The notes under the pieces: model-generated
Told to the model about the DNA's origin: nothing
The model's database searches: none
Seen by the model: the letters and a program-made list of their open reading frames with translations, nothing else
Program-made: the position numbers and the translations under genes
Shown here: positions 23,799 through 51,216 of the stretch, piece after piece
Position numbering within the stretch: the stretch's first letter is position 1
How the letters are laid out: each line of letters opens with the position of its first letter
Assembly: GCF_988242995.1 (NCBI RefSeq)
Contig: NZ_OZ547043.1
Reading direction: 5' to 3' (one strand)
DNA length: 64,000 nucleotides

Positions 23799-25080
23799 TG
23801 TGCCTCAGGCGCGATTTCTTTCAATGCCCCATAAATTTAAAGCCTATATTGCTGGTTTTGGCTCGGGCAAAACATGGGTTGGGTGTAGCGGCATATGCAA
23901 GGGGATTTGGGAGCATCCAGGTATAAATCAGGGATATTTTGCGCCAACGTATCCCCAAATTCGCGATATTTTTTACCCTACAGTGGAAGAAGTTGCTGCT
24001 GACTGGGGATTGAACGTAAAAATTAATGAGGGAAATAAAGAGGTTCACTTTTATTACGGACGCCAGTATCGGGGAACCACTATCTGCAGATCGATGGAGA
24101 AGCCACAAACGATCGTCGGTTTCAAAATTGGTAATGCGTTGGTGGATGAACTGGACATTTTGCCGAAGGAAAAAGCCAGAACGGCGTGGCGCAAGATAAT
24201 TGCACGTATGCGTTATAAGATTGATGGACTTCGCAACGGTATTGACGTTACAACCACGCCGGAAGGATTCAAATTTGTCTACGAGCAGTTTGTTAAAGCC
24301 GTGCGTGAAAAAACAGAGCTGGCCTCACTGTATGGTCTGGTGCAGGCATCTACTTTCGATAATGAAAAGAACCTGCCAGCAGATTACATTCCTTCGCTTC
24401 TTGAATCATACCCTCCAGAGCTGATTAAAGCCTATCTTCGAGGACAGTTTACTAACCTGACAAGTGGTACTGTTTACCATCAGTTTGACCGGAAACTGAA
24501 TAATTGCGAAGAAGTGGAGCAGCCAGGGGAGCCGATTTATATTGGGATGGATTTTAACGTTGGAAAGATGGCGGGAATCGTCCATGTGCTGCGTTTGGGG
24601 CTTCCATGTGCGGTAACTGAAATCATCAATGCCTACGATACGCCGGATATGATCCGCATCATTAAAGAACGCTTCTGGCTGTATGATGGGAATGATTACC
24701 GGAAAGTGAGGGAAATTTATATTTATCCAGATGCTTCCGGGGATTCCAGAAAATCAAGTAACGCAAGTACGACGGATATAGCCCAGCTTAAGCAGGCTGG
24801 TTTTAACGTTGTGGTGAACAGCTCGAACCCGCCAGTAAAAGATCGCGTTAACTCAATGAATGCAATGTTCTGCAATGCCAATGGTGAGCGTCGCTATAAA
24901 GTTAATGTGAAGCGTTGCCCGTTATATGCCGAATCTCTGGAGCAACAGGTCTGGGATGAGAAGGGGGAGCCTGATAAAAAATCTGGCAATGATCACCCGA
25001 ATGATGCCGGAGGTTATTTCATCGTTAAGCAATTCCCTATTGTCAAACCGACCGGAAGAGTCACATCACTTCGGATTTAA
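23770..25080 (+). CDS. Terminase large subunit
   Basis: 436-aa ORF; Walker A-like AGFGSGKT near N-terminus; position before portal. Confidence 0.7.
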   Translation: MMKMISPTLNVPQARFLSMPHKFKAYIAGFGSGKTWVGCSGICKGIWEHPGINQGYFAPTYPQIRDIFYPTVEEVAADWGLNVKINEGNKEVHFYYGRQYRGTTICRSMEKPQTIVGFKIGNALVDELDILPKEKARTAWRKIIARMRYKIDGLRNGIDVTTTPEGFKFVYEQFVKAVREKTELASLYGLVQASTFDNEKNLPADYIPSLLESYPPELIKAYLRGQFTNLTSGTVYHQFDRKLNNCEEVEQPGEPIYIGMDFNVGKMAGIVHVLRLGLPCAVTEIINAYDTPDMIRIIKERFWLYDGNDYRKVREIYIYPDASGDSRKSSNASTTDIAQLKQAGFNVVVNSSNPPVKDRVNSMNAMFCNANGERRYKVNVKRCPLYAESLEQQVWDEKGEPDKKSGNDHPNDAGGYFIVKQFPIVKPTGRVTSLRI

Positions 25081-25082
25081 TT

Positions 25083-26489
25083 ATGGCTGATATATCAACA
25101 CCCAACCTCGACTATAACGATATGCTGGAGGCGTGGGATATTAACGACGCACTGATGGGCGGTACGCTTGAAATGCGCAGGCAGGGGGAAAATTATCTCC
25201 CAAAATGGCCTAACGAAGATGAAGACGCTTATAAAAAACGCCTGTCTGTGGCTACGCTACTTCCTGTGTATGAAGAAAGCATCAAGCAAAATATTGGGCG
25301 CATATTTGCAGAGCCGACAGTATTGAGTGAGGAAACGCCGGCAAAAATCAGGGAATATGCAGAAAATATCGACATGGAGGGGAGCCGACTGGATGTGTGG
25401 GCGCAGCAATTTTTCAGCCTCGCATTTCAGTATGGTGTGGCACATGCGCTGGTGGACTATCCACGAACGGATATGAAAGAGATTCGGACAAAAGCCGATG
25501 AAAACGCGACCGGTGGTCGTCCGTACGTTACGATGCTGAATCCACGCCAGGTTATTGGATGGAAATCGAAAGTTGAAAAAGGGAAAGTTGTTCTCACTGA
25601 TTTGCGTATAAAAGAGGTCATCATTATTGATGGTGATGATTTCGGGCAGAAGAAGGTGGAGCAGATCCGCCATATTATGCCCCGTCGAGTTGAAATTTAT
25701 CGACGTAGCGAAGGCACTAATGGCGAATCTGTCTGGACGCTTCATGAGTCATGGAATACCAGCCGTGATGATATTCCTCTGGTAACACTGTACACGAAGA
25801 AAACAGGATTTATGCGTGGTACACCGCCATTGCTTAATCTTGGCTTGCTGAATATCAAGCACTGGCAAAGCCAGAGCGAGCAGGACAATATTCTTCATGT
25901 TGCCCGCGTTCCATTGCTGGTGGCCTACGGGCTGGACAGGAATGAAGAACTGACGGTTGGTGCATCCACCGCTACGATTTTTGAGGACAGAACAAAAAAT
26001 GGCCTCGAATATGTTGAACATAGTGGCGCAGCGATAGAATCTGGCGAAACATCACTTGAGAAGCTGGAAAATCAGATGCGTCATGCCGGCGCTAAACTTC
26101 TGCGTGCTGAAAATACATCCACCAAATCTGTTGATCAGACTAATGAAGAGCGAATGCAGGAAAACTCGCCGCTTTATACAATGGCGAACTCCCTCGAAGA
26201 TGCTCTCGATAATATTCTCCAGATAATGGCGGAATGGATCGGAGAGAGTTGCGGTGGCAATGTGGATGTGCGCACTGAACTGGATGTATCTGCCCAGGTG
26301 TTTGACTCATCCTCCGCGCTGGCTGTTCAGTCATTGCGTCAGGGCGGTGATATACGTCAGATTGATGCGGTTCGGGTGTTGCAGGCGTTGAAATTTATCG
26401 ATCAGGATTCCCGTCCAGAGGAAGTGATCGATGAATTAAAAAATCAGAGTGTAATGCTGATGGAAATCAATGATGCAAACCGTGAATGA
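25083..26489 (+). CDS. Portal protein (putative)
   Basis: 468-aa ORF immediately after terminase large subunit. Confidence 0.55.
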   Translation: MADISTPNLDYNDMLEAWDINDALMGGTLEMRRQGENYLPKWPNEDEDAYKKRLSVATLLPVYEESIKQNIGRIFAEPTVLSEETPAKIREYAENIDMEGSRLDVWAQQFFSLAFQYGVAHALVDYPRTDMKEIRTKADENATGGRPYVTMLNPRQVIGWKSKVEKGKVVLTDLRIKEVIIIDGDDFGQKKVEQIRHIMPRRVEIYRRSEGTNGESVWTLHESWNTSRDDIPLVTLYTKKTGFMRGTPPLLNLGLLNIKHWQSQSEQDNILHVARVPLLVAYGLDRNEELTVGASTATIFEDRTKNGLEYVEHSGAAIESGETSLEKLENQMRHAGAKLLRAENTSTKSVDQTNEERMQENSPLYTMANSLEDALDNILQIMAEWIGESCGGNVDVRTELDVSAQVFDSSSALAVQSLRQGGDIRQIDAVRVLQALKFIDQDSRPEEVIDELKNQSVMLMEINDANRE

Positions 26490-29914: not shown

Positions 29915-30310
29915 ATGATCACTTACGTGACCTGTGATGACGTTGATAATGCGTTTGGGAACGCCTGGACGAGTGAGAACGCTAAAAATAAAGCTGTTTT
30001 AATGGCTAATGCCTGGCTTAATGGCTTCAACCTGAAAATTAACCCATCCCGTATTCCGGAAGAGGTAAAACTTGCGGGAGCATATGCAGCCAGAATTGCC
30101 TCATTCGGTAAGTTGTTTCAGCAGAAAAATGATTCTGGCGTTGTTATCAGTAAAGCCGTGTCGGCTGACGGGGTCAGTGTATCGAAATCATTTGCTGAGT
30201 TGCCAGCAAACAGCACTGTATTGCTTGAACCCGATTTACAGCTTGCGATAGCACTGCTGAAACCGTACGGACTTAGTCGCTCACAAGTCAGGGTTGTGAG
30301 GGGGGGATAA
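29915..30310 (+). CDS. Head-tail connector/adaptor protein (putative)
   Basis: 131-aa ORF in tightly packed head-to-tail gene series with overlapping stops and starts. Confidence 0.4.
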   Translation: MITYVTCDDVDNAFGNAWTSENAKNKAVLMANAWLNGFNLKINPSRIPEEVKLAGAYAARIASFGKLFQQKNDSGVVISKAVSADGVSVSKSFAELPANSTVLLEPDLQLAIALLKPYGLSRSQVRVVRGG

Positions 30311-30693
30311 TGGGGCTTCGTGAAGAGATTCAGTCAGAGGTTGCCGCTGCTTTTGATGAGGATTTAGCGGACGCCGTGAGTGATTTTTCTGGTTCTTACG
30401 TTACGCACCGGCACTGGGATCCTGTGACGGAAACTGGCGGCGAATCCACCGCAATCTATACCGGGCGAGGCGTGTTGACACGTTATAAGCTGGGCAGAAT
30501 TGATGGGATTAATATTTTGCATGGTGACCTTAAATTAACCGCTCTGGTATGCGAGGTTACGGATAAACCCGCTGTCGACCATATTATTGAGATTTATGAT
30601 CCTGTATTAAGGCAGTTACAACGATACGAGGTAATTACAGCGAGTGTAGATCCTTCCGCATCAGTTTACTCTATCCAGTTAAGGAGAGCGTAA
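30310..30693 (+). CDS. Head-tail joining protein (putative)
   Basis: 127-aa ORF, translationally coupled to neighbours. Confidence 0.4.
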   Translation: MGLREEIQSEVAAAFDEDLADAVSDFSGSYVTHRHWDPVTETGGESTAIYTGRGVLTRYKLGRIDGINILHGDLKLTALVCEVTDKPAVDHIIEIYDPVLRQLQRYEVITASVDPSASVYSIQLRRA

Positions 30694-31489: not shown

Positions 31490-32452
31490 GTGAGTTCAGG
31501 TGCAAAGGTTATCTCGGCATTTATCCGGGAGACGGTTGCAGGCACTACGCCAGCAAGTGGTGACTGGAGTTTATTAAAACGCACAAGCTGGGGAGTAAAA
31601 CCCACCCAGAATAAAGGCGAAAATAATGAGATTGGTGGCTCCCGGATGGCTCAGGGGGCGACGCCTGGCACTGTGGATGTCGGCGGTGATGTTGGTACCA
31701 AATTTCGCTGGGGTCAACATGATGATTTTCTTGCATCCTGTTTCGGCGCGGAATGGTCAGGCGATTCTCTGACAATGGGGAATGAGCGAATAACATTTTC
31801 TCTGGCGACCTATGCGTCCGATGTCGGAATTGCCTCTGTCGTCAGAGGAGCGCAGGTTGGCTCATGGAAAATGCAGATCCCTAACGACGGCGATATTACA
31901 GCGACCGTAACCTTTGCCGGACTGGACTGGGAATCAAAGGCCGATGATACGAATTTTATCAAAGGCGAACCTGTGGATAGTGCAGGAAAGCTACGTTATT
32001 CGTTTAAGGAGGTTTCAGCAGTAAGCCTGAATGGTGTTGCCGGAGGTAACGGTTTTTGTATCGACAGTTTTGATATTCAGTTCGATAACAAACTCCAGAC
32101 ACAGCGTTGTATCGGGACTGGCTCGCCTTATGCAGGAGCAAATATTCCGACTACTTTTACACCGTCCGGTACGGTGACGCTTTCATGGTCTAAAGCCGCG
32201 TGGGAAATCTGGAGTAAAACACTGACTGGAGAAACAGTTCCGTTCAGCTTCACGCTTTCGAATGGAGAGGGGGCATACACTTTCAGTTTCCCGAAGGTTC
32301 AGGTGTCAGGTGAATGGCCTGATGGGGGTAATAGCGACATTATCCAGGTTCAATTGAGCATTACCGCAGCAGATGAAGCACCTACGATAACCAGAAAAAA
32401 AAATTCCCCGGCTGCCGTGATCGCAAAAGCCAGTGCTGAGGCGATTAGTTGA
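31490..32452 (+). CDS. Major tail (tube) protein (putative)
   Basis: 320-aa ORF with strong SD; precedes tail assembly chaperone pair. Confidence 0.6.
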   Translation: MSSGAKVISAFIRETVAGTTPASGDWSLLKRTSWGVKPTQNKGENNEIGGSRMAQGATPGTVDVGGDVGTKFRWGQHDDFLASCFGAEWSGDSLTMGNERITFSLATYASDVGIASVVRGAQVGSWKMQIPNDGDITATVTFAGLDWESKADDTNFIKGEPVDSAGKLRYSFKEVSAVSLNGVAGGNGFCIDSFDIQFDNKLQTQRCIGTGSPYAGANIPTTFTPSGTVTLSWSKAAWEIWSKTLTGETVPFSFTLSNGEGAYTFSFPKVQVSGEWPDGGNSDIIQVQLSITAADEAPTITRKKNSPAAVIAKASAEAIS

Positions 32453-32500: not shown

Positions 32501-32962
32501 ATGAGGTTATGGATGTTTATTCTTAATCAGAAAATTATCATTGGTGGAGAACGCTGGTTTACGCCAATGAAGGACTTAAAACCTGTAGACGGGTTAAAAC
32601 TGTTGGTGGTAAGCAGCGATAACGATCAGTATCGCTCCCGTAATGCATTAATCCGTCGCCACATTGAGAAAATGGATGCCAGTTTGCACGTCGGAACGAA
32701 GGAGTTTGATATTTCAAAGGTTTCCGAGGTGGATTCTGTTGATGATTTACTCATTGATAATGCCGCTCGTTATCTGCTGAAAGACTGGAAAGGGGTTGGT
32801 GAACTGGTTAATGGTGTTGAGGTTGCACTGGAATATACGGCAGAACGAGGGATCGCGCTGCTTAAGCAGAATCCAGAGTTGTACTGGCAGATCCTTGCAG
32901 AAGCAGCCAGCATCGCCCAGGGTAAAGAGCAGCAGAAGCAGGATACGATAAAAAAGCCATAG
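32501..32962 (+). CDS. Tail assembly chaperone (lambda G analogue)
   Basis: ORF upstream of tape measure gene ending with slippery A_AAA_AAG; true start may be ATG at 32567 (MKDLKPV). Confidence 0.65.
   Translation: MRLWMFILNQKIIIGGERWFTPMKDLKPVDGLKLLVVSSDNDQYRSRNALIRRHIEKMDASLHVGTKEFDISKVSEVDSVDDLLIDNAARYLLKDWKGVGELVNGVEVALEYTAERGIALLKQNPELYWQILAEAASIAQGKEQQKQDTIKKP
32950..32956 (+). other. Programmed -1 ribosomal frameshift slippery heptamer A_AAA_AAG
   Basis: In chaperone frame the codons are ATA AAA AAG CCA TAG; -1 frame is open from here to 33270. Confidence 0.7.
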
Positions 32963-33270
32963 CTGCCCAGCGGTGGTTATCGGAGTTCGGGGGAGAAAGG
33001 GGGGAAAAGGCAAGATGGAAGCGAGAAAAACTCAGGTTGCCACCGATACCGGAACCAGAAATAGACCCGGTGCTTAAGGAGTTGTTGTACGCCTATTCGG
33101 TAATATCCCGTGCCCGACGTTATGCTGGAATGGCTGGGGTGCCTTTGCCTTTATCTCTGACAGAGATAAATGAATATTTAGCCACTCATCCGGTATTGAT
33201 TGAGCGCGATGAATTTGAAGCAGTGATCTTTGCACTGGATGACCAGTATTTTCAGGAGCAGTGTGTGTAG
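32950..33270 (+). CDS. C-terminal extension of tail assembly chaperone fusion (lambda GT analogue), made by -1 frameshift
   Basis: -1 frame relative to chaperone ORF, open through the slippery site; ORF track reports 33037..33270. Confidence 0.6.
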   Translation, partial: KKAIAAQRWLSEFGGERGEKARWKREKLRLPPIPEPEIDPVLKELLYAYSVISRARRYAGMAGVPLPLSLTEINEYLATHPVLIERDEFEAVIFALDDQYFQEQCV

Positions 33271-33435
33271 TTGTTAATTACGTACACTCTGTTACAGAGA
33301 TGTGATTGTGTCTTTAATTAAATCGATGATGCTCCTGGAGAAAAGCATTGCGTGGCCTCGTAATCGCTATATCTACTATTATGTCGCCTGAAACCCACTT
33401 CGCGGTGGGTTTTTTGTTGTCAGGAGTTTTAATAA

Positions 33436-36400
33436 ATGGCAGAGCAAACCTCGCGTCTCGCAATAATTATTGATAGCACTGGAGCGAAAAATAATGCTGA
33501 CAATCTGACCTCCTCATTAGTCAAAATGACGCAGGCTGGGGAAACTGCTGCAAATAGCGCAGGGAAAGTGACTAAGGCAACAGAAGATGAGAAGAACGCG
33601 CTCGCAAAATTAAAAGCAGCTATTGATCCAGTTGGTGCCGCAATTGATACTGTCGGTCGACGCTATTCTGAATTAAAGAAATTTTTCGATAAAGGGCTTA
33701 TTGATAAAGAAGAATATGAATTTCTTGTCCGTAAACTTAATGAAACCACAGAGGAATTGAGCGGGGTTGCGCAAGCGCAGAGAGAAGCCGAGAAGGCCGG
33801 AAAACTTGCTGCCGCCCAGCAGGAAGCGCAGGCTCAGGCCTTTCAAAGAATGCTGGACAAGATCGACCCTCTGGCTGCGGCGCTAAGAAATCTTGAACAA
33901 CAGCATGATGAACTTAATGCTGCGTTTGCATCCGGGAAAATAAATGGTTCTCAGTTTGAGAATTATAGCCGAAAAATACAGGAAACACGGCGAGAGCTTA
34001 CCGGAGAGGCTCAGGCAGAGCGAGAAGCAGCAAAAGCGCATGATGAACAGGTTGTTGCTTTGCAACGTCTGATTGCTCAACTTGATCCTGTCGGAACTGC
34101 TTTTAATCGTCTGGTAGAACAACAGAAACAGCTCAATGAAGCAAAAGCTAAGGGGATGCTTTCTCCTGAAATGTATGAGGAGCTTTCTGGAAAACTTCGT
34201 GCTATGCGGAGTGAGCTTGAGGTTACTCAATCACAATTAAGCAAAACCGGAATGTCGGCAAAACAAACGGCTTTTGCTATGCGCATGTTGCCTGCACAAA
34301 TGACGGATATTGTTGTTGGGTTGTCCACTGGTCAGTCGCCATTTATGGTGTTAATGCAGCAGGGCGGCCAGCTAAAAGATATGTTCGGTGGGATTGGCCC
34401 GGCGATCAAAGGTGTAGGTTCTTATGTGCTGGGATTAATTAATCCTTTTACCCTGGCCGCAGCAGCCGTTGGGGTCTTAGGACTGGCTTACTATAAAGGC
34501 TCTCAGGAGCAGGACGAATTTAATAAATCTCTTATTCTTACCGGAAATCAGTTGGGGACAACCAGCGGGCAATTGGGCGATATAGCTCAACGTGCCGGGA
34601 ATGCGGCTGATTCGACAACTGGTGCTGCGGCGGCAGTATTAAATCAGCTTGTGCGTTCGGGAAAGGTAGCGAGCAGTTCGCTGGAGCAAGTGACGACAGC
34701 GATAGTAAAAACGAGCGAAGTAACAGGAATATCAACCGAACAACTGGTTAATGACTTCAATGAAATTGCAAAGGATCCTGTCAGTGCCATATCAAAACTT
34801 AATGATCAGTACCATTTTCTGACACTTGCGACTTATAACCAGATTAAGGCGCTACAGGATGAAGGGAACCAGCAGGAGGCCGCCCGCATTGCGACAGAAG
34901 AATACTCATCCTCAATGATCCAGCGCACCAACCAGATTAAAGAAAATCTTGGTTATCTTGAGACTGCATGGAAAGCTGTCGCAGACTCCGCAAAATGGGC
35001 ATGGGATTCCATGCTGGATATTGGCCGTGAGGCCTCCCTTGATCAAAAAATCTCAGATGTTCTCCGTCAAATTGATGAAATAGAAAAAAATACCCGACCC
35101 GGAGTTTTCGGGTTAGGTGGCATTGGAGATGGCGGAGCTCAAAATAAAAGGCTGGCACGATTAAAGCAGCAATTGGGCGTACTTCAAGCAGAAAAAATTG
35201 CTCAGGACGTACTAAATTCATCAATAAACGATTACAACAAGCGACAACAGGAAGGAATTGAACTCAGACAGAGAGCAGATGCCTTTTCAAAACAATATCA
35301 GACCCGGGAGCAGCAGAGAGCTAGTGAACTTGCAAAACTGGAAAAGCTAAAGAATCAGTATTCAAAGGAAGAATATAATAATCTTATCGCTCAAATAAAT
35401 GAGCGTTATAAAGATCCAAAGCAACCAAAGGCGAAAGGTTATTCTGATGATGCAGCCCAACGAATGATTGATCATCTGAATCAACAGAATGCGTTACTAA
35501 GTTCACAAGCTGAGTTGACCGTTAAATTAAGTTCCTCTGAACAGGAACTGGTTAAGTGGCGTCAGCGGATTGCCGACCTAGAGTCACGACCATCATCGAA
35601 ATTAACCCAGGATCAGAAATCGCTTCTCTTACACCGGGAAGAAATAACCGCGTTGATGGAGAAAAATGTTGCGATTGAAAAGAATAACAGGCTAATCAAG
35701 GAATCCGCCGAAATAACAGCATGGCGTGATTCATTGCAGGCTTCGATTGATAATCGTCAGCAGGGGTATGATATTCAGATTGCTGGTTATGGGGTTGGCG
35801 ATAAAAATCAGCAACGCCAGCAGGAATTACTGCGGATTGAACATGGATATAACAATCAGCGTCTGCAACTTGAACGTGACTATGCAGATAAATCCCGTGG
35901 AATGTCAGATCATGTTTTTCAAGAGAAAATGCAGGCTCTGAATGATGCTCTGGAACGGGAAAAAGAAATTGTCAGACAGAAAAACGAGCAGCTCGATATT
36001 CAGGCAGGAGACTGGGTTAGTGGTGCCTCCCAGGGATTCAATAACTGGCTGGATGACACTAAGGATATCAGTGAGCAGATAAAATCAACCACGACTCAGA
36101 TGTTTGATGGGATGACCGATGCGCTGGGTGATTTTGTCACGACAGGCAAGGCAAATTTTCGTTCTTTCGCTACTTCCGTGATTTCGGATCTTAGTCGAAT
36201 AGCATTAAAGGCTTCAATTACTGGGATTTTCGACAGCATTAGTAACAGTTCTTCTGGGGGGATTTTAGGAACTATCGGGAGTGCTATTAGTAAATTTATT
36301 CCGAATGCAAAGGGCGGTGTTTATGAGTCTCCGTCATTGAGCACGTATTCGAACGGTATTTATGATTCCCCGCAATTTTTTGCTTTTGCAAAAGGGGCTG

Positions 36401-36669
36401 GTGTTTTTGGTGAGGCTGGACCGGAAGCCATTATGCCATTAACACGAACTTCCGATGGTTCTCTTGGTGTCAGAGCTATTAATAGTAAAAGTGGTAATGG
36501 AGGCGGAGATATTACCTATGCCCCTGTATACCAAATCACTATTCAAAATGACGGCCAGAATGGAGAGATTGGCCCTCAGGCAATAAAAGCACTTATGGGG
36601 ATGGTTGATCAGCGGGTGCAGGGCACTCTGTTAAATATGCGACGTGATGGGGGAATGTTAAGTGGCTAA
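33436..36669 (+). CDS. Tail tape measure protein
   Basis: 1077-aa coiled-coil-rich ORF between chaperones and lambda-like M/L/K/I/J. Confidence 0.9.
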
Positions 36670-48038: not shown

Positions 48039-48892
48039 GAGCGATCCTCCAGCGCTTTATGCGCACGCCGACGATTTGCCAAAAGCCCATGGGTGGGCGC
48101 AAATACAAATGCTAAAAGAAACAGCAGTGTCTGCGCCACCACGATGATTCCACCTGTCGCGCCGTCCAGAAAGTAACTGACCCACGCGCCGAGGAAACTG
48201 GTTACACTGCCAATAGTTACAGCAATTATGAGCAGGCGGGGAAAACGATCGGTTAACAACCATGCTGTTGCACCGGGAGTCACCACCAGACAGATCACCA
48301 GAAAGGCACCAACCGTTTGCAGCGCCGCAACGGTCGAAACCGACAGCAGGGTGAAGAAGAGGATTTTTAATCTGCCCGGATGCAATCCAATAGCACGAGC
48401 GTGATTCTCGTCGAAAAAGGTCACCATAAGATCTTTCCATTTGAAAAAAAGCACGATGATCGAGAGAATGCCAATGATAGTGAGTTGCAGGATATCCGCC
48501 GGATCGATTGCCAGAATATTGCCCAGGACGATGGTCTGAATGTTCACGGATGTCGGGTTCAATGACACCATAAACAGCCCCAGGCCAAAAAAGGAGGAGA
48601 AGATCAGGCCGATGATGGCATCTTCTTTTAAGCGAGTGCGTTGGTTAAGAAACAGCATGCTGCCCGCTGCCAGTCCGCCGGAAAAGAAGGCTCCCAGAGA
48701 AAACGGAAGCCCCAGCATATATGCCCCCGCAACACCCGGGACAATAGAGTGCGACAGCGCATCGCCAATCAGCGACCAGCCTTTTAGCATCAGATAGCAT
48801 GACAGGAAAGCGCAGAGACCGCCGACCATCGCCGAGACCCACATCGCATTGAGCATATATTCATAGCTGAAGGGTTCCAGTAGCACGTTCAT
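48035..48892 (-). CDS. sitC: Mn/Fe ABC transporter permease SitC
   Basis: 285-aa membrane ORF paralogous to the downstream permease. Confidence 0.85.
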
Positions 48893-50725: not shown

Positions 50726-51216
50726 AGCTTTGGGGCCCAAAACAGGGATTAGGTTGTTTCCTGCTGGCGACGCGTTATTGAGGAAAAAAGTAAGGCAGCT
50801 AGTAGGCTTTGAAATGACTTGATGAGGAAAATTGTTGATGGCAAAAATGGGGCAAAGCGCTGCAAAAGGGGCAAAAAAGGGGCAAAAAAAGAGTGGGTTA
50901 TCGTAGCTTATTGTTGTCGCTGATGATATTTAACACATTGAAAAATAAGTAAAATACTTATGAGTCAGAGAGTTGTGATTTTTGCCCTTACTTGTTCAGG
51001 TTGTATTGTTCTTTCTTACTAAATTCTTGATTTTGCGACATTTAAAAGCGACTCAATTCGTTATATGGCATCAGAAGAGTATGCGTCATGCCGGAACGCC
51101 CAGCATAAGAAATCTGATATAAAAACTGTGGCGTGTATGGTACGGATTAGAGGGGAAAATGTCAGCACATTTGCGAAATGAATCAAAAAGCCCGCAGGAA
51201 TGTGCGGGCGTTAGTG

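What the first reader, a model, noticed from the sequence alone, without database searches (positions are those of the whole stretch)
32950..33270. Programmed -1 frameshift site (A_AAA_AAG) joining tail assembly chaperone frames
The chaperone ORF ends ...ATA AAA AAG CCA TAG, and the -1 frame is open from the heptamer A_AAA_AAG (the dnaX-type slippery sequence) through to 33270, just before the tape measure gene. This is the conserved G/GT recoding arrangement of long-tailed phages and shows that the annotated 33037..33270 ORF is really the C-terminal part of a frameshift fusion protein.
Basis: partly seen in the sequence, partly recalled or inferred. Interest (0 to 1): 0.35.

Follow-up and report, generated by a model that had tools for sequence, protein, structure and literature searches.

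The report
Prophage tail chaperone -1 frameshift site
This is a real but ordinary example of the well-known "G/GT" trick of long-tailed phages: a slippery A_AAA_AAG near the end of the tail-chaperone gene of an E. coli Rac-type prophage lets a fraction of ribosomes slip back one base and make a longer fusion protein, which current genome annotations miss.

Summary
A_AAA_AAG lies at 32950-32956 in the correct X_XXY_YYZ phase, one codon before the TAG of a 149-aa tail assembly chaperone gene (32513-32962). The -1 frame is open from 32926 to 33270, between the tail tube gene and the tape measure gene.

The heptamer alone is common (34 in the window), so the support is comparative:
- T lies in the -1 frame in 79 of 80 related viral loci.
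- All 82 enterobacterial-type loci keep A_AAA_AAG, although the 0-frame stop moves.
- Third-codon-position variability switches from the 0 frame to the -1 frame at the site.
- The 27-codon linker has no start codon, yet is 67-78% identical in the -1 frame against 22-33% in the other frames.
- Distant relatives slip at the same aligned Lys codon using G_GGA_AAG, G_GAA_AAG or C_GCA_AAG.
- Acinetobacter phage TRS1 already carries an annotated joined CDS.

The predicted G structure best matches the HK97 tail assembly chaperone. No conserved stimulatory RNA structure was found.

Verdict: a genuine, unannotated member of the known G/GT recoding class, in the YdaY/phrog_313 family of Rac-type prophages. 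The frameshift product and its efficiency are inferred, not measured. Low novelty.

The parts
31490..32452 (+). Tail tube (major tail) protein gene, the upstream neighbour that defines the G/GT position
   Evidence: Pfam Phage_tube_2 E 9e-32; PGAP 'phage tail tube protein' in matching genomes
32513..32962 (+). G: tail assembly chaperone ORF, 149 aa from ATG 32513 (GAGG SD at 32503-32506). An alternative ATG at 32501 gives 153 aa. This is the full-length form of the K-12 Rac remnant ydaY
32939..32943 (+). SD-like CAGGA, 6 nt upstream of the heptamer. It is a candidate 5' stimulator only
   Evidence: Invariant in 47 distinct enterobacterial-type sequences but absent in the Erwinia, Pseudomonas and Acinetobacter relatives. 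It also encodes Gln-Asp/Glu. Function not tested
32950..32956 (+). Slippery heptamer A_AAA_AAG in X_XXY_YYZ phase; proposed -1 shift site
   Evidence: present in all 82 enterobacterial-type loci; slip-codon Lys invariant in A1 and >=90% conserved in 60 diverse G proteins
32960..32962 (+). 0-frame TAG stop of G, one codon after the heptamer
   Evidence: Its position is not conserved: relatives have 0 to 37 residues after the slip Lys
32956..33270 (+). T: the -1 frame extension, 104 codons plus stop, read only after the slip. The first -1 codon is GCC at 32956-32958. GT fusion = 32513..32956 + 32956..33270, 252 aa
   Evidence: phrog_1189 E 1e-36 and a weak Pfam Phage_TAC_18 hit; linker 32956-33036 has no start codon yet is 67-78% identical in the -1 frame against 22-33% in the other frames; AF2 model pLDDT 91.5
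32959..32980 (+). Local 9-bp hairpin starting 2 nt after the heptamer. It is not supported as a stimulator
   Evidence: Fold z-scores 0.20 and 0.93 against shuffles; alifold consensus -4 kcal/mol with 0 compensatory pairs; a 2-nt spacer is shorter than usual for stimulators (general knowledge)
33390..33413 (+). Terminator-like hairpin with a T-run in the 165-nt T-to-tape-measure spacer. This is context, not part of the recoding signal
   Evidence: no Rfam family; conserved only in the close E. coli lineage
33436..36669 (+). Tape measure protein gene, the downstream neighbour
   Evidence: Pfam TMP_2 E 1e-81, Tape_meas_lam_C, TMP_4

Best explanation
Ribosomes translating the tail assembly chaperone gene G (32513-32962) of this Rac-type E. 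coli prophage reach A_AAA_AAG at 32950-32956. Most of them read on through CCA and stop at TAG, which yields the 149-aa G protein. A minority slip back one base: tRNA-Lys moves from AAA-AAG to AAA-AAA. Those ribosomes continue in the -1 frame through 104 more codons to 33270 and make a 252-aa GT fusion. By analogy with lambda gpG/gpGT, the G moiety would coat the tape measure protein and the T moiety would recruit the tail tube protein, so the slip frequency sets a fixed G:GT ratio. What is shown here: the site, its phase, the open frame, protein-level conservation of the start-less -1 region, positional conservation of the slip codon across distant relatives, and the chaperone-like fold and gene position. 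What is inferred: that slipping actually happens, its efficiency (probably a few per cent or more, given that A_AAA_AAG is the most shift-prone heptamer in E. coli), and the roles of G and T in tail assembly.
For: 1. Site geometry is exact, and it is unique among the 34 AAAAAAG copies in the window.
2. Gene order is tail terminator, tail tube, G, T, tape measure, then M/L/K/I/J-like genes.
3. G matches phrog_313 TAC at E 6e-46; T matches phrog_1189 and also the C-terminal part of the 258-position phrog_313 profile.
4. In 79 of 80 viral-contig relatives T is in the -1 frame. A_AAA_AAG is present in all 82 enterobacterial-type loci, while the G/T overlap ranges from 37 to 244 nt because the 0-frame stop moves.
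5. Third-codon-position variability shifts from the 0 frame upstream to the -1 frame immediately downstream. Linker aa identity is 67-78% in the -1 frame against 22-33% in the other frames at about 60% nt identity. 30 of 47 distinct sequences have no ATG/GTG/TTG within 40 codons after the slip.
6. Relatives at 25-57% identity slip at the same alignment column: Erwinia C_GCA_AAG-TAA, Pseudomonas G_GAA_AAG, Acinetobacter G_GGA_AAG. A conserved aromatic residue sits 7 residues downstream, Trp in six of the seven loci and Tyr in TRS1. In 60 diverse G proteins the site dipeptide is GK 43, KK 10, EK 5, AK 1.
7. An exhaustive profile search found 527 clusters whose members match either the G half, ending at about 144-149, or the T half, starting anywhere from 147 to 204.
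8. Acinetobacter phage TRS1, a homolog, carries an annotated joined chaperone CDS.
10. Literature: G/GT frameshifting is widely conserved despite low sequence similarity, and A_AAA_AAG is the dnaX site and highly shift-prone in E. coli (PMC5009743). An unrelated E. coli prophage chaperone, ECs1801, uses the same heptamer (PMC4066793 Table S4).
Confidence: 0.9

Rival explanations
1. T is an independent gene translated from its own start (TTG 33037, or TTG 33082/33085 behind the SD-like TAAGGAG). The heptamer in G would then be coincidental.
For: TAAGGAG at 33075-33081 is a strong SD-like sequence followed by TTG codons. Annotators of phage SPF_0923 and PGAP sometimes call a separate short ORF here.
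Against: The SD+TTG is present in only 5 of the 82 loci, and most relatives have ATC CTC at that spot with no start. TTG 33037 occurs in 9 of 47 distinct sequences and its only upstream purine run abuts the codon. The 27-43 codons upstream of any candidate start are conserved as protein in the -1 frame. Gene callers choose T starts anywhere between profile positions 147 and 204.
Confidence: 0.04
2. The -1 frame is reached by transcriptional slippage: RNA polymerase adds one A in the A6 run, so a subset of mRNAs encodes GT in a single frame.
For: The site contains six consecutive A residues, and inserting one A would put T in frame. Transcriptional slippage is a known alternative route in some genes, such as Thermus dnaX (PMC5009743).
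Against: Efficient slippage is described for runs of about 9 A/T (PMC5009743), and A6 is short. Homologs that slip at the same column use G_GGA_AAG, G_GAA_AAG or C_GCA_AAG, which have no homopolymer run but retain the ribosomal A_AAG motif.
Confidence: 0.04
3. G and T are the two halves of a gene broken by a frameshift mutation in a decaying prophage, that is, a pseudogene rather than a recoding site.
For: The K-12 Rac copy is a truncated remnant that databases treat as a pseudogene-like fragment. Some assemblies show indel-type variants (P0002-P0004).
Against: The same -1 arrangement is found in 79 of 80 loci, including isolated, viable phages of five genera. Both frames remain under purifying selection. 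The slip codon is conserved across a family of 527 clusters.
Confidence: 0.01

Closest known systems
Phage lambda gpG / gpGT (G_GGA_AAG -1 frameshift; Levin 1993, Xu 2004/2013/2014 as summarised in PMC5009743)
   Same: Same gene position between the major tail and tape measure genes. Two overlapping ORFs with T in the -1 frame. An in-phase heptamer ending in A_AAG a few codons before the G stop (lambda checked). No conserved stimulatory structure was found here. More distant members of this family use the very same G_GGA_AAG.
   Different: No detectable sequence similarity (hhalign probability 0.15%). The heptamer here is A_AAA_AAG, not G_GGA_AAG. The T extension is 104 aa against about 145 aa in lambda. 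A 165-nt spacer with a terminator-like hairpin separates T from the tape measure gene, whereas lambda T overlaps H.
Acinetobacter phage vB_AbaS_TRS1 tail assembly chaperone, annotated joined CDS YP_009289757 (NC_031098)
   Same: True homolog: about 25% identity over the fusion, with the T part at 39%. Same -1 arrangement, slipping at the same alignment column.
   Different: It uses G_GGA_AAG, located 26 codons before the G stop, and extra genes lie between T and the tape measure gene.
E. coli O157:H7 Sakai prophage Sp9 ECs1801/ECs1802 (cluster A_AAA_AAG_25 of Sharma et al. 2014, PMC4066793 Table S4)
   Same: An E. coli prophage tail assembly chaperone with an in-phase A_AAA_AAG at the very end of G and T in the -1 frame.
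   Different: It is an unrelated protein family (no BLAST hit), and its heptamer abuts the stop codon directly (AAG TAG).
E. coli dnaX gamma/tau frameshift
   Same: Identical slippery heptamer A_AAA_AAG, read by the single tRNA-Lys (PMC5009743).
   Different: dnaX has an upstream SD 10 nt away and a downstream stem-loop that give about 50% shifting, and its shifted product is the shorter one. Here no supported stimulators were found, and the shifted product is the longer one.

Membership tests
G/GT-type tail assembly chaperone recoding (Xu, Hendrix & Duda 2004 class) | Two ORFs located between the major tail (tube) gene and the tape measure gene | tested here: met
   Tube 31490-32452, G 32513-32962, T to 33270, tape measure 33436-36669
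G/GT-type tail assembly chaperone recoding (Xu, Hendrix & Duda 2004 class) | The second ORF overlaps the 3' end of the first, lies in the -1 frame and lacks a conserved start of its own | tested here: met
   37-nt overlap with the -1 frame open from 32926; -1 frame in 79 of 80 relatives; no conserved start
G/GT-type tail assembly chaperone recoding (Xu, Hendrix & Duda 2004 class) | An in-phase slippery sequence within the overlap, conserved among relatives | tested here: met
   A_AAA_AAG at 32950-32956 in phase; found in all 82 enterobacterial-type loci; a positionally homologous A_AAG slip codon in distant relatives
G/GT-type tail assembly chaperone recoding (Xu, Hendrix & Duda 2004 class) | Both G and the GT fusion are produced, at a low GT:G ratio | not testable with these tools
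   Needs a western blot, mass spectrometry or a reporter assay
G/GT-type tail assembly chaperone recoding (Xu, Hendrix & Duda 2004 class) | G and GT are required for tail assembly and absent from virions; G binds the tape measure and T binds the tube protein | not testable with these tools
   Function is inferred from lambda (PMC5009743)
Tail assembly chaperone fold (HK97 chaperone, PDB 2ob9) | Structural similarity of the G protein to a solved tail assembly chaperone | tested here: inconclusive
Lambda gpG / gpT sequence families | Sequence homology to lambda G or T | tested here: not met
   hhalign probability 0.15%. No Pfam lambda G or T family was hit. Sequence similarity is not required for the G/GT class (PMC5009743)
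phrog_313 / YdaY family (precomputed Pfam PF27119) | Sequence match of G to the family profile | tested here: met
   phrog_313 E 6e-46; all close database homologs carry PF27119; K-12 ydaY is the truncated copy at 99.9% DNA identity
dnaX-type stimulated frameshift cassette | A heptamer plus an upstream SD at about 10 nt and a downstream stem-loop | tested here: not met
   The heptamer is identical, but there is no conserved downstream structure. The SD-like CAGGA is at 6 nt and restricted to one clade

The most novel reading that the evidence does not exclude
Within one homologous chaperone family the slip position is fixed while the heptamer turns over: G_GGA_AAG, A_AAA_AAG, G_GAA_AAG, and C_GCA_AAG next to a stop. 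Only the A_AAG tetramer is invariant. If the non-canonical variants are functional, the family would be a natural series showing that single-tRNA-Lys slippage on A_AAG is enough for G/GT recoding. The enterobacterial switch to the much shiftier A_AAA_AAG, together with an invariant CAGGA 6 nt upstream, would then have re-tuned the G:GT ratio well above lambda's roughly 1:30.
Probability: 0.25. Interest if true: 0.4.

Novelty: new member of a known kind. Interest (0 to 1): 0.2.

Why it matters
The main value is for annotation. This chaperone pair is present in about 1,060 of 5,426 complete E. coli genomes and in many Klebsiella, Citrobacter and Salmonella prophages. None of the E. coli or enterobacterial phage records I inspected annotates the frameshift. 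G is named 'YdaY' or 'hypothetical', often with the truncated K-12 length copied on to it, and T is called or dropped inconsistently. Recognising the GT fusion gives a function to the K-12 orphan gene name ydaY: it is a remnant of a tail assembly chaperone. It also supplies a correct 252-aa protein for prophage annotation and adds a second, unrelated E. coli prophage chaperone family that uses the dnaX heptamer. It does not change what is known about recoding.

Tried and rejected
1. Downstream stimulatory structure. Single-sequence folds of 32957-33056 and 32920-33020 are no better than shuffles (z 0.20 and 0.93). RNAalifold on 12 diverse relatives gives -4 kcal/mol with no compensatory pairs. 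Rejected as unsupported.
2. Rfam scan of 32800-33600. The only hit was a chance match of the terminator stem to sroH (14.7 bits against a gathering score of 80).
3. Homology to lambda GT by profile comparison: none. Sequence search of the PDB with the family profile: nothing. NCBIfam: no family.
4. Database search for a deposited GT fusion. P0001 looked like one, but it is a genomic 35-nt deletion between direct repeats. P0002-P0004 read like homopolymer indel variants or assembly errors. None is evidence for the slip product.
5. Literature. No searchable paper links ydaY or the Rac chaperone to frameshifting. Gurvich et al. 2003 could not be retrieved under the id I recalled. Sharma 2014's cluster A_AAA_AAG_25 (ECs1801) turned out to be a different protein family.
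6. Independent T start at TTG 33037 or 33082/33085: not conserved.
7. The T-to-tape-measure spacer and its hairpin are too little diverged among the loci that have them to test for function.

Full report
WHAT IS THERE. The window region is the tail module of a Rac-type lambdoid prophage of Escherichia coli. The 1.1-kb stretch around the finding is 100% identical to E. coli PF9285. It is present at 80% coverage or more in 1,059 of 5,426 complete E. coli genomes, and 10 phage records carry it, including Salmonella phage SPF_0923. K-12 carries a 5'-truncated copy, the Rac remnant genes ydaY and ynaA. The gene order is tail terminator, tail tube (31490-32452, Pfam Phage_tube_2), a 149-153 aa ORF (32501/32513-32962), a short ORF ending at 33270, the tape measure gene (33436-36669; TMP_2, TMP_4, Tape_meas_lam_C), and then M-, L-, K-, I- and J-like genes.

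CHECK OF THE OBSERVATION. The first ORF ends ...ATA AAA AAG CCA TAG. AAAAAAG occupies 32950-32956, with AAA and AAG as 0-frame codons, which is the correct X_XXY_YYZ phase. The -1 frame is open from 32926 to the stop at 33268-33270 and contains no ATG, GTG or TTG before 33037. A slip yields a 252-aa fusion counted from ATG 32513. That start has a GAGG 6 nt upstream and is the one the SPF_0923 annotators chose. The heptamer on its own proves nothing: the window holds 34 copies, against 20.3 +/- 4.5 in shuffles. Of those 34, however, only this one has a long in-phase ORF upstream (150 codons), a 0-frame stop one codon later and a 104-codon -1 continuation.

COMPARATIVE TEST: THE MAIN EVIDENCE.
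- A tblastn search of the predicted fusion against 50,697 phage records found 47 records. In all 30 listed hits that cover both halves, the match is in two pieces, meaning two frames.
- I fetched six representatives and then 80 viral-contig loci, out of 542 confirmed relatives. T is in the -1 frame relative to G in 79 of the 80; the exception has an N in the sequence.
- All 82 enterobacterial-type loci keep A_AAA_AAG at the same place. Meanwhile the 0-frame stop wanders (TAG to TTG or TCG), which stretches the overlap from 37 nt to as much as 244 nt. What is conserved is the heptamer, not the stop.
- Across 47 distinct sequences, third-codon-position variability lies in the 0-frame phase upstream of the site (0.03/0.07/0.26) and in the -1 phase immediately downstream (0.05/0.07/0.23).
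- In the 27-codon linker that has no start codon, amino-acid identity to relatives at about 60% DNA identity is 67-78% in the -1 frame, against 22-33% in the other two frames.
- Thirty of the 47 distinct sequences have no potential start codon within 40 codons after the slip. TTG 33037 is present in only 9 of them.
- The strong-looking TAAGGAG followed by TTG at 33075-33087 is confined to the window's own narrow lineage.

DISTANT RELATIVES. Relatives at 25-57% identity shift at the same alignment column. Erwinia phage Gungnir39 has C_GCA_AAG followed directly by TAA. Pseudomonas phages phiPSA1 and Aurca01 have G_GAA_AAG-CCA. Acinetobacter phages TCUAN1 and TRS1 have the lambda-type G_GGA_AAG, 26-29 codons before the G stop. 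In six of the seven loci a Trp lies seven residues after the slip; in TRS1 it is Tyr. TRS1 already carries an annotated joined chaperone CDS.

An exhaustive profile search of 1.84 billion cluster representatives found 527 related clusters. The listed proteins match either the G half, ending at about profile position 144-149, or the T half, starting anywhere between 147 and 204, and hardly ever both. In 60 diverse G proteins the slip-site Lys is at least 90% conserved. The dipeptide there is GK in 43, KK in 10, EK in 5 and AK in 1, and the 0-frame tail after it ranges from 0 to 37 residues. The commonest heptamer in the wider family is therefore probably the lambda-type G_GGA_AAG. This is inferred from the Gly-Lys dipeptide, and the DNA was verified only for the Acinetobacter phages. 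The enterobacterial clade uses A_AAA_AAG.

MECHANISM. The best-supported reading is a programmed -1 ribosomal frameshift of the lambda G/GT type. Most ribosomes terminate at TAG 32960 and give G. A fraction re-pair tRNA-Lys from AAA-AAG to AAA-AAA and continue through T to give GT. In lambda the two products are made at about 30:1. G binds the tape measure protein and T binds the major tail protein, and neither ends up in the virion. The arrangement is conserved among long-tailed phages despite low sequence similarity (PMC5009743). [quoted passage not shown] The site, phase, conservation and protein families are shown here. The slip itself, its efficiency and the assembly roles are inferred.

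STIMULATORS. I found none that is supported. A 9-bp hairpin begins 2 nt after the heptamer, but the region folds no better than shuffled sequence (z 0.20 and 0.93). A consensus fold over 12 diverse relatives gives -4 kcal/mol and no compensatory pair. An SD-like CAGGA at 32939-32943 is invariant across the 47 distinct enterobacterial-type sequences. However, it is only 6 nt from the heptamer, at the edge of the 6-17 nt range searched by Sharma et al.. It also codes for Gln-Asp/Glu and is absent from the distant relatives. It remains a candidate only.

RIVALS.
- Independent initiation of T is contradicted by the lack of any conserved start and by protein-level conservation upstream of every candidate start.
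- Transcriptional slippage on the A6 run is unlikely. Efficient cases involve runs of about nine (PMC5009743), and homologs without any homopolymer run shift at the same column.
- A decaying pseudogene is excluded, because the arrangement is conserved in viable phages of five genera.

COMPARISON WITH WHAT IS KNOWN. In function and architecture this is a textbook member of the G/GT recoding class. It is not a sequence relative of lambda G/T (hhalign probability 0.15%). A different E. coli prophage chaperone, ECs1801/1802 of Sakai Sp9, was already listed by Sharma et al. 2014 as cluster A_AAA_AAG_25, 'tail assembly chaperone; [true]'. I fetched it, and it has the same heptamer flush against its stop but no sequence similarity to the present family. 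No searchable paper links ydaY or the Rac chaperone to frameshifting. None of the E. coli, Salmonella-phage, Klebsiella, Erwinia or Pseudomonas phage records I inspected annotates the join. The finding is thus a new, unannotated member of a known kind.

VERDICT. Novelty is low and interest is about 0.2. The value lies mainly in annotation: ydaY turns out to be a remnant of a tail assembly chaperone gene, and the 252-aa GT product is missing from about a thousand genome annotations. The most novel reading not excluded is that heptamer turnover at a fixed A_AAG position re-tunes the G:GT ratio, and that single-tRNA slippage suffices in the non-canonical variants.

Noticed in passing
window 33271-33435 (hairpin 33390-33413, + strand): The 165-nt spacer between T and the tape measure gene contains a strong terminator-like hairpin followed by a T-run (GAAACCCAC-TTCGC-GGTGGGTTTTTT), inside what should be a single late operon. 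It is kept at 96% identity or more, with loop and T-run length variants, only in the close E. coli lineage. It matches no Rfam family. In the Klebsiella, Pseudomonas and Acinetobacter relatives, one to four or more extra small genes sit at this same position, so it looks like a moron insertion spot. The function of the hairpin is unknown.
   Followed up: partly
window 32897-32906 and 32932-32941: Two 10-bp direct repeats (GCAGAAGCAG) lie 35 nt apart near the end of G. Deleting one copy plus the spacer puts T in frame with G. This explains database protein P0001 (E. coli NB16F79_39920, 240 aa), a genomic G-T fusion that would make GT only and no G.
   Followed up: yes
window 32513-32962; L091 10604-10963; L002 3168-3563: PGAP annotates the full-length chaperone gene with the length of the 5'-truncated K-12 remnant YdaY (119 aa), or with a later ATG (32567), which drops about 20-30 N-terminal residues. 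The T ORF is called 'hypothetical protein' in some genomes and omitted in others.
   Followed up: partly
L003 (K-12 MG1655) 2249-2852; protein P0041: In K-12 the Rac deletion joins ynaK (ParB/Srx-like) directly to the truncated chaperone gene. The slip site and the whole T frame are still intact there. One database protein (P0041, 246 aa) carries both the ParB N-terminal domain and the YdaY domain, apparently by reading across that junction.
   Followed up: no
whole window, both strands: AAAAAAG is over-represented: 34 copies against 20.3 +/- 4.5 in dinucleotide-preserving shuffles, and none of 100 shuffles reaches 34. Local clusters occur near 50784-50891 and 48445-48593. None of the other copies has a frameshift-like ORF geometry.
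   Followed up: partly
L002 (E. coli PF9285) 135-1294, corresponding to window 30310-30693: In PF9285 the head-tail gene that is intact in the window (127 aa, 30310-30693) is split by an IS1A insertion. PGAP labels the two halves 'glutamate 5-kinase', which looks like a misannotation.
   Followed up: no
L092 (O157:H7 Sakai Sp9) 25002-25681: ECs_1801/ECs_1802 form an unrelated chaperone pair with A_AAA_AAG directly abutting the TAG stop and a 102-codon -1 continuation. The RefSeq record still annotates them as two separate genes, although Sharma et al. 2014 flagged the frameshift.
   Followed up: yes
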